Positions 3,383 through 52,364 of a stretch of DNA of 64,000 nucleotides are shown here, piece after piece; within the stretch, counting starts at the first letter, position 1; every line of letters begins with the position of its first letter. The DNA comes from Octopus sinensis (taxonomy: Eukaryota). The translations under genes were made by a program, and so were the position numbers. The notes beneath the pieces are model-generated. The model saw nothing but the letters and a program-made list of their open reading frames with translations, ran no database searches and had not been told where the DNA came from. The stretch lies in the NCBI RefSeq assembly GCF_006345805.1, contig NC_043012.1, positions 9,486,001 to 9,550,000 of the forward strand, read 5' to 3'.

Positions 3383-3600
3383 TTAATCAATTAATCAATT
3401 TAGGGTAGCAAAAAATTCAATAGAAATTATTTTGCCACCAGCGGTCTAGTGAGAAAGAGGAAATAGTCAGAGACTATGAATAAATTCAGCAACAATCGAG
3501 GAACGGTTACAATAGGCCGTTCGACCCACCAGAAATAGCTGCTGGCTGCTATTTCTAGTGGGTCGAACGGCCTATTGTAGCCGTTCCTCAATTGTTGTTG
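3383..3600. mobile_element. (TA)n-embedded foldback element with ~53-bp inverted arms
   Basis: Arms 3487-3539 and 3548-3600 differ by 4 transitions. Unpaired head aatttagggtagc...ccagcggtctagtgagaaa. TA tracts on both sides. Confidence 0.75.
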
Positions 3601-11359: not shown

Positions 11360-11559
11360 TACATATATATATATAATAATAAATATTAGGGAATAATCCA
11401 AATTTACAGGGAAAAATCAGATTTAGGATTGAATTCAATTTTATAGTAAAATATAATATTATATTAAATTAGAGACAAAACAACTATTATGCAAATCAAA
11501 CAAAGAAAGACTTAAGCCAATACATAAAATAATTTATATAAATTAAATTTAATTAAAAT

Positions 11560-11613
11560 AACCACTACGATCGTTTCGTGTCAGCACTTCTATGAGACAT
11601 TCTTCAGGTGGTT
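11560..11613 (-). ncRNA. Type I hammerhead ribozyme
   Basis: Minus: aaccac CTGAAGA atgtc-loop-gacac GAAA cgatcg TA gtggtt. Perfect 6-bp stem I, palindromic stem III, A-C mismatch at the base of stem II. Confidence 0.8.
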
Positions 11614-11677
11614 TCAAAACCTTCTTTGCAAGTTTTAAACTATGAACTTAGTTTAAAACTTGCAAAGAAGGTTTTGA

Positions 11678-11731
11678 AACCACCTGAAGAATGTCGCATA
11701 GAAGTGCTGACACGAAACGATCGTAGTGATT
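11678..11731 (+). ncRNA. Type I hammerhead ribozyme (mirror copy)
   Basis: aaccac CTGAAGA atgtcgcatagaagtgctgacac GAAA cgatcg TA gtgatt. One mismatch in stem I. Confidence 0.75.
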
Positions 11732-11825
11732 ATTTTAATTAAATTTAATTTATATAAATTATTTTATGTATGGCTTAAGTCTTTCTTTGTTTGATTTGCA
11801 TAATAGTGGTTTTGTCTCTAATTTA

Positions 11826-11900
<75 letters not shown>

Positions 11901-21512: not shown

Positions 21513-21768
21513 ATTTAAATAATGAGGGAGATAAATTAATATTAATTTTAATATCAATTTAAAACCAGTAGTCTAGCATGAGAAATCAGAGAAATTCTAA
21601 TATATGTGTATATTGGCAGGGCAAGACTGCTAGGTAGTCGGCCGTATGCTAGAAATAGATCATCAACGATCAAACTACAAAGAAAGTCCCCTAGAGAAAA
21701 AATTCGGCGAACACCAGAACCCACTAGCATACGGCCGACTACCTAGCAGTCTTGCCCTGCCAATATAC

Positions 21769-22452: not shown

Positions 22453-22708
22453 AATAATAAATATTAGGGAATAATAAATATTAGGGAAAGACTTAATCAA
22501 TACATAAAATTTTAATAAAAAGTCAAAAAAACCGCCACTACAATTGTTTCTTGTCCTGATCGACAATCTTCAGTGGACTTCCAATTTTCAAGTCAGTTTC
22601 AGGACAAGAAACAATTGTAGTGGCGGTTTTTTTGACTTTTTATTAAAATTTTATGTATTGATTAAGTCTTTCCTTGTTTGTTTTGCAAAATAGTGGTTTT
22701 GTCTCTAA

Positions 22709-22716
<8 letters not shown>
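22453..22716. mobile_element. Foldback element of the 11375 family, 75-bp perfect arms, hammerhead core on minus strand
   Basis: Duplicated head aataataaatattaggg, arms 22485-22559 and 22599-22673, same terminal atagtggttttgtctctaat. Minus 22535-22576: cca CTGAAGA ttgtc gatcag gacaa GAAA caattg TA gtgg. Confidence 0.82.
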
Positions 22717-23483: not shown

Positions 23484-23889
23484 AGCGCAGGAGTGGCTGT
23501 GTGGTAAGTAGCTTGCTAACCAACCACATGGTTCCGGGTTCAGTCCCACTGCGTGGCATCTTGGGCAAGTGTCTTCTGCTATAGCCCCGGGCCGACCTTG
23601 TGAGTGGATTTGGTAGACGGAAACTGAAAGAAGCCTGTCGTATATATGTATATATATATAAGTGTGTGTGTATATATTTGTGTGTCTGTGTTTGTCCCCC
23701 TAGCATTGCTTGACAACCGATGCTGGTGTGTTTACGTCCCCGTCACTTAGCGGTTCGGCAACAGAGACCGATAGAATAAGTACTGGGCTTACAAAGAATA
23801 AGTCCCGGAGTCGATTTACTCGACTAAAGGCGGTGCTTCAGCATGGCCGCAGTCAAAGGACTGAAACAAGTAAAAGAGTAAAAGAGTAA
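23484..23889 (+). mobile_element. SINE family A copy
   Basis: Match to 4525-4940. Confidence 0.92.
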
Positions 23890-24157
23890 GGAAAAGGAAG
23901 CAAAAATATCAGCCTACCCTATATGTGAAAAAAATGATGGATTAGAAACAAATAAAGAATTAAAACTATTATAAGAGTAAAGATAAACATAAGAAATACC
24001 AAATGAGTAAACGTAAAGAAACACTCCCTTGTTTAGAAACCTAATCAGTTTATGAATAATATATAATTACTTCATTCGAATATTCACGATAGAGAAAAGA
24101 TACTTAGGGAAGTACAAAAGAAGAAATATAGAAAAGGCTTTCATTTGAGAAAGGTAT

Positions 24158-24555
24158 ACTCTCTCTCTTTTACTCTTTTACTTCTTTCAGTCATTTGGCT
24201 GCGGCCATGCTGGAGCACCGCCTTTAGTCGAGCAAATCGACCCCAGGACTTATTCTTTGTAAGCACAGTACTTATTCTATCGGTCTCTTTTGCCGAACCG
24301 CTAGGTGACGGGGACGTAAACACACCAGCATCGGTTGTCAAGCAATGCTAGGGGGATGAACACAGCACACAAATATATACACACACACTTATATATACAT
24401 ATATACGACGGGCTTCTTTCAGTTTCCGTCTACCAAATCCACTCACAAGGCATTGGTCGGCCCGGGGCTATAGCAGAAGACACTTGCCCAAGATGCCACG
24501 CAGTGGGACTGAACCCGGAACCATGTGGTTGGTTAGCAAGCTACTTACCACACAG
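24158..24555 (-). mobile_element. SINE family A copy (first ~15 nt missing)
   Basis: Reverse-complement match to 4525-4940. Confidence 0.92.
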
Positions 24556-34647: not shown

Positions 34648-34860
34648 ATTTTGAATAATGAGGGTGATAAATTGAATATCAATTTCTAAGACATGAAAAT
34701 AACGCCAATGTAATCGGTAGAACTATACACACATATAATTTTATAAGGACACCTAGTGTATAGTTCTACAAATTATATTGAATGGGAACGATCGTACTGA
34801 AGAGTCCATAGACGATGATTACTTAAGTAAAATCGTTGATGACGAAACCGGTCTGCGATT
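34648..34860 (+). mobile_element. TA-adjacent element with family head, short foldback and hammerhead
   Basis: Head aataatgagggtgataaatt..aatatcaattt (as at 21513). Inverted repeat gtagaactatacac/gtgtatagttctac (34717-34730, 34756-34769). Confidence 0.65.
34791..34859 (+). ncRNA. Type I hammerhead ribozyme, canonical core
   Basis: atcgta CTGAAGA gtc...gac GAAA ccgg TC tgcgat. G-C closing pair in stem II, palindromic stem III, GUC cleavage site predicted after 34853. Confidence 0.85.
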
Positions 34861-35071
34861 AATTCTGTATTTTGTATATTTTCATCTGTCTTACCCACTT
34901 ATGTTCTGGTATTTGCTGAATTTCTCTAGAGAACATTCTTTTCTTTGTAGTTAGATCGTAGGTGATCTTCTTCTAGCATATTGCATGTCCACATAGTGGC
35001 CATCCCTATTATACGTATTCTGCACACATTTTTTTCTCTCCTTGTTTCTCTCCGTGTTTCTTTTCTGTGTA

Positions 35072-35109
35072 TCTTTCTGTTGAAGAGCGTAGGCTCGAAA
35101 CGTAAAAGA
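35072..35109 (+). ncRNA. Minimal hammerhead-like motif with CUGUUGA core variant
   Basis: tcttt CTGTTGA a gagc gtag gctc GAAA cg TA aaaga. Stems I and II are perfect. A related degenerate copy lies at ~11200-11239 (-). Confidence 0.6.
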
Positions 35110-35217
35110 CTTGTTTTATTTATATTCCTGAGCGCCATACTAATACAATTGTTTGTTTGTATTCCACCTGCCTTCGTCTTTTGTTTATTTTCATAAAGCT
35201 TCCCGTTTGATATATAT

Positions 35218-51296: not shown

Positions 51297-51545
51297 GGAG
51301 GTGCGTGGCTTAGTGGTTAGGGTGTCAGCATCATGATCGTAAGATTGTGGTTTCGATTCCTGGACCAGGCGACGCGTTGAGTTCTTGAGTAAAACACTTC
51401 ATTTCACGTTGATCCAGTTTACTCTGATGACAAAAATGAGTAACGCTGCGATGGACTGGCGTCCCATCCAGCTGGGGAACACATACGCCATTGAAACCGG
51501 GAAACCAGGCCCATGAGCCTGGCTAGGCTTTAAAAGGGTGCATTT
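51297..51545 (+). mobile_element. tRNA-derived SINE (head type B, tail type X)
   Basis: TGGCTTAGTGG and GGTTTCGATTCC boxes. Tail gagtaacgctgcgatggactggcgtccc...gaaaccgggaaacc..cccatgagcctgg is shared with 33-150 (-). Confidence 0.88.
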
Positions 51546-51572
51546 ATATATATATATATAATATATATATAT

Positions 51573-52326
51573 AAAATAGTAAAAAGTGAAAAAACTACAG
51601 AAGGCTTGTTTTAAAAGGTTAAAACAAATATATTTGAGTCATTATGTCTGAAGAATGTTATAAATTTTTTTCATACAATGACATAGTTTTTGAAGAAATG
51701 ACCGGTTTCGCGTTCAACTTTTCAAATTTCTTACATCGTTATGTTTACGTTGAGAAGTGTGAAGAAAGAGTTCCAGATAAGGGGAGGCAATAAATGATTT
51801 CTTCCGATGTAAGGGAGATAATCGCTCAATATTTTTTGCCTTTTTGGGGAGTGAGTTTCTCTGTATAAGAATGTTGGAATGGTTAAGTTTGGGCTTGTAT
51901 TTTTCAATGAAGAATGTTTCCTTGTTTAGTCTAATTTGTGTTGGTGTTTCGATAGCACATTGGTAAAACGGAAAGATTAAAAATTGTGGTAGTAGTTGCT
52001 TTGCGCATTTCTCAATGTCCTCACTAAAGGGTATCATTCTGTATCCTGGGAATGCAATCTGTTGTCGATGCAGTATGCATCTACGTCTGAGTGATAGTCC
52101 CGTGGACCCCACGTAGTTTTGGTGGCAGCCCGAGCATTTTATGACATAAATTATGTTTTCAGAGGCACAAGTAAAATTAGATTTGATCTTGAATTTCTGT
52201 CCCTCTTCAGACATAATGACTCAAATATATTTTTTTTACCTTTTAAAACAGGCCTTCTGTAGTTTTTCACTTTTTACTATTTTCTATATATTCGACCACG
52301 TGCTTTCACACACCAACTTTCTCACC
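51573..52326 (-). mobile_element. Penelope-like element fragment: GIY-YIG endonuclease C-terminus between inverted ~80-bp pLTR arms
   Basis: ORF 51714-52214: FTCASENIIYVIKCSGCHQNYVGSTGLSLRRR..H...R..KE.FFI..Y.P.LN, typical PLE GIY-YIG. Arms 51573-51654 and 52204-52283. Unpaired extension 52284-52326. Degenerate HHR at 51694-51731 (-). TA tracts on both sides. Confidence 0.88.
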
Positions 52327-52364
52327 TATATATATATATATATATATATATAATGTTCTGTAAT

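What the first reader, a model, noticed from the sequence alone, without database searches (positions are those of the whole stretch)
51573..52326. Penelope GIY-YIG fragment supplies the blueprint for the TA-embedded foldbacks
Seen, reading the minus strand: (TA)n, a ~40-nt unpaired head (..cacgtggtcga, compare ccagcggtcta at ~3438 and ccagtagtcta at ~21565), an arm, the GIY-YIG C-terminus, a degenerate HHR (agaaat TTGAAAA..GAAA ccgg TC atttct), the inverted arm, (TA)n. This is the same layout as 3383, 11375, 21513 and 22453 but with a coding spacer. Established: PLE insertions often have an inverted truncated pLTR with a short extension and favour AT-rich simple repeats. Inference: one mechanism generates a length series of hairpin/ribozyme cassettes in microsatellites. 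The ORF's ATG comes from the inverted arm, so the 166-aa ORF is a junction product.
Basis: partly seen in the sequence, partly recalled or inferred. Interest (0 to 1): 0.72.

Follow-up and report, generated by a model that had tools for sequence, protein, structure and literature searches.

The report
Twin-primed Penelope stub in TA repeat
This hairpin is a broken piece of a common Penelope-type jumping gene, with a second, flipped copy of its end in front of it (a layout already in print), and because such mirror-image inserts nearly always pair one long end with one short end, the enzyme likely starts copying from both cut ends of the TA repeat.

Summary
The layout is real: (TA)n, 35-nt head, 88-nt inverted arm, GIY-YIG stub, hammerhead, arm, (TA)n. 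It is a 5'-truncated Neptune-type Penelope-like element (PLE). The head is the family's optional 3' tail, read backwards. The 166-aa ORF takes its ATG from the inverted arm.

- The hammerhead is the family's U3-A8 variant (29 of 29 parsed copies), not a decayed one.
- The head resemblance to 3438/21565 rests partly on a private base.
- The four other foldbacks share no sequence with it: two are Hydra-type PLE ends, two are non-coding tandem hammerhead repeats cut short of their ribozyme.
- MITE is refuted.

Beyond the known layout, 87 of 93 foldbacks from five families carry the tail on exactly one arm. In this family both ends lie on TATATAT tracts and are equally common genome-wide (383 vs 386), while a third tract is barely used (2). 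Best reading, inferred: both target ends prime cDNA, one at each site. This scan has noted the one-tail rule, the retrozyme link and the parent's slippery site before, on other DNA. Verdict: new member of a known kind.

The parts
52327..52352 (.). (TA)n target, outer flank of the inverted arm
   Evidence: TRF
52292..52326 (+). 35-nt 'head' = the family's optional 3' tail on the inverted copy. In long tandem copies the tail runs on through a TATATAT tract into the first ORF's start about 25 nt later
   Evidence: Sense tail at the 3' end of 12 of 30 loci; run-on in 8 of 25 long loci
52204..52291 (+). Inverted, 5'-truncated copy of the element's 3' end (88 nt); supplies the ATG at 52214 on the minus strand
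52204..52207 (-). 4-nt microhomology (AAGA) at the inversion junction
   Evidence: the native sequence upstream is LFKEGQKF
51826..52207 (-). 5'-truncated GIY-YIG endonuclease coding stub. The linker zinc finger is lost and the second CCHH histidine reads Asp in this copy. The commonest family stop lies near 51826
51714..52214 (-). 166-aa junction ORF: foreign ATG at the front, read-through past an A/C run into the 3' region, stop inside the hammerhead
51693..51732 (-). Minimal type I hammerhead, U3-A8 core, 2-bp stem II, palindromic ACCGGT stem III (dimer type); cleavage not tested
   Evidence: the variant is described in PMC4209133
51565..51654 (-). Sense 3' end of the element, ending tail-less at the first TATATAT tract
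51545..51573 (.). (TA)n target, outer flank of the sense arm
3384..3600 (.). Cassette A: separate family. Foldback of a non-coding monomer of about 485 nt that runs on into its own start and carries a canonical hammerhead; this copy stops short of the ribozyme; tail about 100 nt
11375..11830 (.). Cassette B: foldback of a hammerhead-bearing 3' end, one hammerhead per arm, tail about 80 nt. A 91% identical end lies directly behind a Hydra-type GIY-YIG ORF in L162, so the link to a coding parent is inferred
21513..21765 (.). Cassette C: foldback of a non-coding 546-nt tandem monomer with a canonical hammerhead (three units in a row in L219); this copy stops short of the ribozyme
22453..22712 (.). 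Cassette D: relative of B (81%). The same ends frame a 6.1-kb insert with an RT-thumb-like frame and a Hydra-type GIY-YIG in L148; the window copy has a deletion through head and left arm

Best explanation
The stretch is a dead, 5'-truncated copy of a Neptune-type Penelope-like retrotransposon joined head to head with a shorter copy of its own 3' end, and it was likely made when both cut ends of a (TA)n repeat primed reverse transcription, one at each of two fixed sites that bracket the 35-nt tail.

From the literature: a purified PLE protein cuts and extends both strands and starts at two sites that bracket the tail.

Inferred: each target end pairs with one tract, the two cDNAs are cut short at random and joined end to end, and the same kind of enzyme made the four other foldbacks from other RNAs, two of them non-coding hammerhead repeats. 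The 166-aa ORF is likely an accident with no function.
For: Family: 2790 first-look candidates, 40 scored, 94-97% identical over 633 nt. RT frames lie upstream in longer copies. A near-full-length pLTR-tail-ORF1-RT-EN-3' end copy is L275. 120 listed relatives of 685-806 aa; 119 of 120 with DKG, 112 of 120 with the CX2-5CxxC linker plus the CxxC inside GIY-YIG.

One-tail rule: 87 of 93 foldbacks in fetched loci (2 both, 3 neither, 1 unclassified), and 57 of 62 from queries without the tail. 16 of 18 divergent end pairs on C1-C3 and part of C4 are mixed, P 6e-4. End counts are 383, 386 and 2.

The tail sits on the short arm in L001, L002, L011, L025 and L026, so it cannot have been copied from a tail-less long arm. 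Microhomology of 3 nt or more occurs in 6 of 11 junctions against 5.8% by chance. Literature: PMC8557442 Fig. 2 legend, PMC11167929.
Against: No intermediate or in vitro product was seen; the mechanism rests on genomic end products. 19 of 30 top copies show no inverted arm at all, so either the second cDNA is often lost or many inserts are primed once; the top hits were chosen for long 3' matches. In PMC11167929 the start sites of a Poseidon element are not homologous to the target, and the third tract here is unused, so base pairing alone does not set the site. Cassette A's ends have only weak AT tracts, and its junctions mostly lack microhomology (1 of 13 with 3 nt or more). One RNA or two is open: arms share rare alleles in 5 of 10 foldbacks but differ at segregating sites in 4 of 10. 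Two pairs of rows and one pair are duplicates of one insertion. The three patterns differ in length, so 383:386 is approximate.
Confidence: 0.62

Rival explanations
1. The same PLE stub, but the inversion comes from self-priming or snap-back: one cDNA (or an antisense template, as proposed in PMC3846280) folds back and copies itself.
For: Proposed in print for head-to-head PLE repeats. Arms share rare alleles in 5 of 10 foldbacks. Many B and D copies are near-perfect palindromes with little spacer (those queries favoured such copies).
Against: In the window copy and four others the short arm holds the tail that the long arm lacks, which a copy of the long arm cannot supply. Arms differ at three segregating sites in L025. 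An antisense template from a tandem source is not excluded.
Confidence: 0.2
2. Two independent, singly primed insertions or a later repair event happen to land head to head in the same TA repeat; the two ends are chosen independently.
For: TA repeats here are crowded with stacked inserts (L162, L236, L254). 19 of 30 copies have no inverted arm.
Against: Independence allows at most half mixed pairs; 57 of 62 and 16 of 18 were seen. No TA run lies between paired arms.
Confidence: 0.08
3. The foldbacks are MITEs with terminal inverted repeats and TA target duplications, and this one captured a GIY-YIG piece.
For: Inverted ends and TA flanks.
Against: The arm is the continuous 3' end of an RT-GIY-YIG element. 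The ends are asymmetric, arm lengths run from 19 to over 500 nt, and junctions differ in every copy. Arms of B, D and the parents of A and C hold hammerheads.
Confidence: 0.02
4. The inverted copy is an assembly artefact of long reads (fold-back chimera).
For: Homopolymer length differences between copies suggest read errors.
Against: The arms differ at 5 of 90 sites, one carries a tail absent from the other, both end exactly at family end points, and the same layout recurs with different junctions on many contigs.
Confidence: 0.03
5. The junction ORF, or the hairpin, has been put to use by the host (a stand-alone nuclease or a source of double-stranded RNA).
For: An open 166-aa frame with an ATG and 88-bp arms that would pair if transcribed.
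Against: Linker zinc finger lost, second CCHH His replaced (26 of 27 parsed copies keep it), C-terminus is read-through, and the copy is about 4% diverged like its siblings.
Confidence: 0.03

Closest known systems
C-terminal-endonuclease Penelope-like elements, Neptune type (Craig et al. 2021, PMC8557442; Arkhipova et al. 2013, PMC3846280)
   Same: RT with GxKF and DKG motifs, CX4CX2C linker, CCHH GIY-YIG, partial tandems, inverted 5'-truncated copy, 35-nt tail on one end, AT-rich target.
   Different: The parent has a separate upstream ORF of about 450 aa overlapping the RT frame at T TTT TTA (23 of 24 distinct loci). Both ends lie on TATATAT tracts. The papers give the one-sided tail in words, not as counts.
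Poseidon_Ac in vitro system (Frangieh et al. 2024, PMC11167929)
   Same: Two RT start sites bracket the tail; both strands of AT-rich DNA are cut and extended; a dimer is predicted.
   Different: There the start sites are not homologous to the target, and the main text does not tie one strand to one site; here both ends match the (TA)n target and pair one of each.
Minimal type I hammerheads of PLE pLTRs, incl. the U3-A8 variant of Cercyon (Cervera and de la Pena 2014, PMC4209133)
   Same: U3-A8 core, palindromic helix III, opposite-strand pairs 100-700 bp apart ascribed to truncated PLEs.
   Different: Helix II is only 2 bp here (7-8 bp in Schistosoma), helix I is 7 bp, and no extra base follows the core.
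Hydra clade of PLEs (PMC8557442, section 11), for cassettes B and D
   Same: CxCX5C linker, CxxC and CxH beside the conserved E and N, canonical hammerhead, (TA)n target.
   Different: Tail about 80 nt. The D parent has about 4 kb between ORF and end (published elements are mostly under 3 kb). The DKT motif was not seen, because the copy is truncated.
Animal non-LTR retrozymes (PMC7229834; bioRxiv 10.64898/2026.07.22.740005), for cassettes A and C
   Same: Non-coding head-to-tail units with a type I hammerhead.
   Different: Units of about 485 and 546 nt (170-400 nt in PMC7229834), dispersed as truncated inserts with PLE-type inversion, a one-sided tail of about 100 nt and (TA)n targets. The words 'tail' and 'target site' were not found in the preprint's main text.
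L1 twin priming (recalled; search listing only)
   Same: Both target ends prime; products join by microhomology to give an inversion.
   Different: In L1 the inverted part is upstream sequence; here both arms repeat the same 3' end.

Membership tests
EN+ Penelope-like element | RT followed by C-terminal GIY-YIG endonuclease in the parent | tested here: met
   in each fetched copy the frame is broken by a stop or frameshift at a different place
EN+ Penelope-like element | Partial tandem forming a pLTR ahead of the ORF | tested here: met
   8 of 25 long loci
EN+ Penelope-like element | Inverted 5'-truncated copy at the 5' side | tested here: met
   window copy and 10 more of 30 loci
EN+ Penelope-like element | Optional 30-40 nt tail at one end | tested here: met
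   35 nt; 12 of 30 sense ends carry it
EN+ Penelope-like element | Minimal hammerhead motif in the pLTR | tested here: met
   U3-A8 core in 29 of 29 parsed copies of 30
EN+ Penelope-like element | Hammerhead self-cleaves | not testable with these tools
   The monomer does not fold as a hammerhead by energy alone (z 0.49), as expected for a dimer type
Neptune clade | CX2-5CxxC linker upstream of GIY-YIG | tested here: met
   KCGRPNCATC in parents; cut off in the window copy
Neptune clade | CCHH motif in the endonuclease; DKG and GxKF in RT | tested here: met
   the window copy has Asp for the second His
Neptune clade | RT tree placement with named Neptune versus Nematis references | not tested
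   No named reference sequences were fetched; clade called from motifs only
MITE / TIR DNA transposon | Matching terminal inverted repeats at both ends and a fixed length | tested here: not met
MITE / TIR DNA transposon | Ends derived from a transposase element | tested here: not met
   The arm is the 3' end of the RT-GIY-YIG element
MITE / TIR DNA transposon | TA target-site duplication | tested here: inconclusive
   cannot be seen inside (TA)n
Hydra clade (cassettes B, D) | CxCX5C linker, CxxC and CxH around E and N, no CCHH, (TA)n target | tested here: met
   read by eye from the L148 and L162 frames against section 11; Pfam gave no GIY-YIG hit for them; B is linked only through a 91% relative
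Hydra clade (cassettes B, D) | DKT and RWK motifs in RT | not tested
   L148 is truncated before them
Non-LTR retrozyme (cassettes A, C) | Two or more consecutive non-coding units, each with a type I hammerhead | tested here: inconclusive
   Met for C (three units). For A the unit runs on into its own start, but two hammerheads in a row were not shown. No coding continuation seen upstream in 30 + 30 loci
Non-LTR retrozyme (cassettes A, C) | Expressed as circular RNA | not testable with these tools
   no raw RNA reads available

The most novel reading that the evidence does not exclude
TA-targeting Penelope-like elements integrate by paired twin priming: the two ends of a cut (TA)n each start cDNA at a different one of two set sites that bracket the tail, in this family two UA tracts that can pair with the target. 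That makes the tail and the head-to-head inversion two faces of one reaction. Non-coding hammerhead repeats (retrozymes) carry the same signature because they are inserted in trans by these enzymes.
Probability: 0.4. Interest if true: 0.62.

Novelty: new member of a known kind. Interest (0 to 1): 0.33.

Why it matters
The locus itself is an ordinary dead stub. Its family, though, gives countable end products for an open question that PMC8557442 names: how PLEs make tandem/inverted repeats, tails and microsatellite bias. A near-strict one-tail-per-foldback rule, a 1:1 use of two ends and an unused third TA tract predict the outcome of a simple in vitro test. The same signature on non-coding hammerhead repeats would be insertion-level evidence that PLE enzymes move retrozymes, which the papers read here argue from shared hammerheads, co-occurrence and pLTR similarity. 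In practice, repeat finders should not file these TA-flanked foldbacks as MITEs or microRNA hairpins.

Tried and rejected
Rfam scan of the window: the 150 of 202 matches listed were all microRNA models below their gathering scores, on simple repeats or hairpins; no hammerhead among them.

Public runs: no RNA holder listed. Contigs of five runs laid on the locus: none of the listed pieces bridged the 52204-52207 junction by 31 letters a side. Contigs break in this repeat, so this says nothing either way.

Microhomology for families C and D: not usable, because the reference copies lacked or differed in the needed stretch; A was usable and mostly negative.

A shared RNA structure at the ends: A and C fold better than shuffles (6 and 0 of 200), this family and B do not (91 and 198 of 200); no common fold is claimed. 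A versus C kinship is marginal (score 44, null maximum 43 of 200).

One-RNA versus two-RNA test: mixed result. Pfam found nothing relevant for the Hydra-type frames or for ORF1, and the Atlas search gave no usable hit for ORF1. No coding partner was found for A or C. Structure prediction was not run: the domain identity was clear from motifs and relatives.

Full report
Observation. On the minus strand the window reads (TA)n (52327-52352), a 35-nt unpaired head (52292-52326), an arm (52204-52291), a coding stub, a hammerhead-shaped motif (51693-51732), the inverted arm (51565-51654) and (TA)n (51545-51573). The arms match at 85 of 90 positions. The frame from ATG 52214 to TGA 51714 is 166 aa and scores weakly for GIY-YIG (E 0.0044, under the curated cut-off). 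So the layout is as described.

What it is. A search of the own genome G000 (2.72 Gb; likely an octopus, inferred from hit names) gave 2790 candidates; 40 were scored, and copies match positions 120-752 of the query at 94-97%. The first 123 nt match those copies only in reverse, over their 3' ends. The head is therefore the family's optional 3' tail: 12 of 30 fetched loci carry it in sense orientation, and 18 end without it. Upstream of the junction the family reads LFKEGQKF, so the window's M-S-E comes from the inverted arm. Arm and body overlap by 4 nt. Longer copies carry RT with GxKF, DKG and FLDD, then KCGRPNCATC, then the GIY-YIG. L275 holds pLTR, tail, an upstream ORF, RT, endonuclease and 3' end in order. 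The 120 listed protein relatives are single frames of 685-806 aa; 119 have DKG and 112 have the CX2-5CxxC linker with the internal CxxC. By the motifs in PMC8557442 this is Neptune type; no tree with named references was built.

The ORF is a junction product at both ends. It lacks the linker zinc finger, and its second CCHH histidine is Asp (His in 26 of 27 parsed copies). It also reads through an A/C run: 14 of 27 parsed copies stop 37 residues earlier, and 6 share the window's stop. Those run lengths may include read errors. Contigs of four public runs show the family bases at both private positions, 52019 and 51717.

The hammerhead is not decayed. All 29 parsed copies (of 30) have the core TTGAAAA, a U3-A8 swap of the usual C3-G8 pair, with a 7-bp stem I, a 2-bp stem II and a palindromic ACCGGT stem III. 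The window's private base makes a U-G pair in stem II. PMC4209133 describes this covariation in Cercyon PLEs, and also opposite-strand hammerhead pairs from truncated PLEs. Cleavage was not tested.

The other four cassettes are not copies of this element. Its 3' end scores within the shuffle range against all four, and the base behind the head resemblance is an A in 11 of 11 other tails parsed. B (11375) and D (22453) are 81% alike. D's ends frame a 6.1-kb insert in L148 with no TA array inside, holding an RT-thumb-like frame and a GIY-YIG with CxCX5C, the Hydra signature. An end 91% like B lies directly behind a related GIY-YIG frame in L162. A (3384) and C (21515) come from non-coding units of about 485 and 546 nt that run on into their own start and carry canonical CTGATGA hammerheads; C stands as three units in a row in L219. 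No coding continuation was seen upstream in 30 + 30 loci. The window copies of A and C stop before the ribozyme. Tails are about 80 nt (B, D) and about 100 nt (A, C), longer than the 30-40 nt in print.

What they share is the insertion signature. Among 93 foldbacks in the fetched loci, 87 have the tail on exactly one arm, 2 on both, 3 on neither and 1 was unclassified; by family: 6 of 6, A 12 of 13, C 13 of 15, B 33 of 35, D 23 of 24. From queries that did not contain the tail the count is 57 of 62. Two pairs of rows are duplicates, and foldbacks whose arm missed the probe, such as window D, were not counted. An independent count from exact end patterns on C1-C3 and part of C4 (188 ends) gave 16 mixed pairs of 18, with spans of 75-1968 nt (one pair is a duplicate). 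Independent choice allows at most half.

Where the ends lie. In 8 of 25 long loci the pLTR and tail run on into the first ORF, and both end points turn out to sit on TATATAT tracts 42 nt apart. Genome-wide exact patterns give 383 tail-less ends and 386 tailed ends, but only 2 ends at a third ATATATAT tract 62 nt upstream (the patterns differ in length). So a match to the target goes with both sites but is not enough. Junction microhomology of 3 nt or more occurs in 6 of 11 junctions of this family against 5.8% by chance; in A it is 1 of 13, and C and D could not be scored.

How it likely works. PMC11167929 shows a Poseidon protein cutting and extending both strands of AT-rich DNA, with two RT start sites that bracket the tail and a predicted dimer. 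I infer that here each end of the cut (TA)n primes at one of the two sites, that both cDNAs are cut short, and that they are joined head to head. Snap-back of one cDNA cannot explain copies, this one included, whose short arm holds a tail the long arm lacks. Against a strict model: 19 of 30 copies show no inverted arm; arms share rare alleles in 5 of 10 foldbacks but differ at segregating sites in 4 of 10; and PMC3846280 proposes self-priming on an antisense template, which I cannot exclude for tandem sources.

Comparison with print. [quoted passage not shown] I found no paper giving counts of the pairing, tying it to priming from both strands, or reporting the signature on retrozymes (searches), but the library lacks most subscription papers, and I did not read Arkhipova 2006. 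What I saw: PMC8557442 passages, section 11 and supplement rows; PMC11167929 parts 1-2 of 4; PMC4209133 parts 1-2 of 4; PMC7229834, PMC3846280 and PMC13282606 passages; the retrozyme preprint part 1 of 5 and passages, not its supplements, which may list such inserts. Earlier notes of this scan report the one-tail rule, the retrozyme link and the U3-A8 core on other DNA; my first counts came before those look-ups, and the notes are not independent support.

Verdict. The finding is a real, ordinary PLE stub whose architecture is known. The family-level counts make one mechanistic question testable, which sets the interest at 0.33.

Noticed in passing
L275:374-3624, L248-L271, L039:2900-3350: The parent has an upstream ORF of about 450 aa that overlaps the RT frame by -1 at T TTT TTA, in frame as Phe-Leu. 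The heptamer is in 23 of 24 distinct loci and at the same place in a 66%-identical sister family; the RT frame has no ATG before its conserved start. Likely a programmed -1 frameshift. PMC8557442 Fig. 1 legend mentions a frameshifted ORF1 without naming the clade in the text I saw; two paper searches found nothing; earlier scan notes report it elsewhere.
   Followed up: partly
window 34650-35200: A sixth TA-bounded compound insert: a 46-nt inverted head 87% like C's tail, a stretch 72% like the C monomer with a canonical hammerhead at 34792, then a different PLE-like 3' end.
   Followed up: no
L148:1614-7757: A D-family foldback of 6.1 kb with about 4 kb between the endonuclease stop and the hammerhead, including an internal 1-kb duplication and an asparagine-rich linker.
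   Followed up: partly
L162:436-2050: Three related B/D-type hammerhead ends stacked in one TA region, the first directly behind a Hydra-type GIY-YIG frame.
   Followed up: partly
window 3384-3530 and 21515-21640: A and C share CTATTTCTAG before the first end and CTAGAC-N3-TGG in the tail; both regions fold better than shuffles (6 and 0 of 200).
   Followed up: partly
window 23497-24555: Two oppositely oriented copies of a common interspersed repeat, with 101 nt at 100% and 201 nt at 94% complementarity.
   Followed up: no
L025: The two arms differ at three sites where both alleles segregate in the family, which hints at two different source RNAs in one insert.
   Followed up: partly
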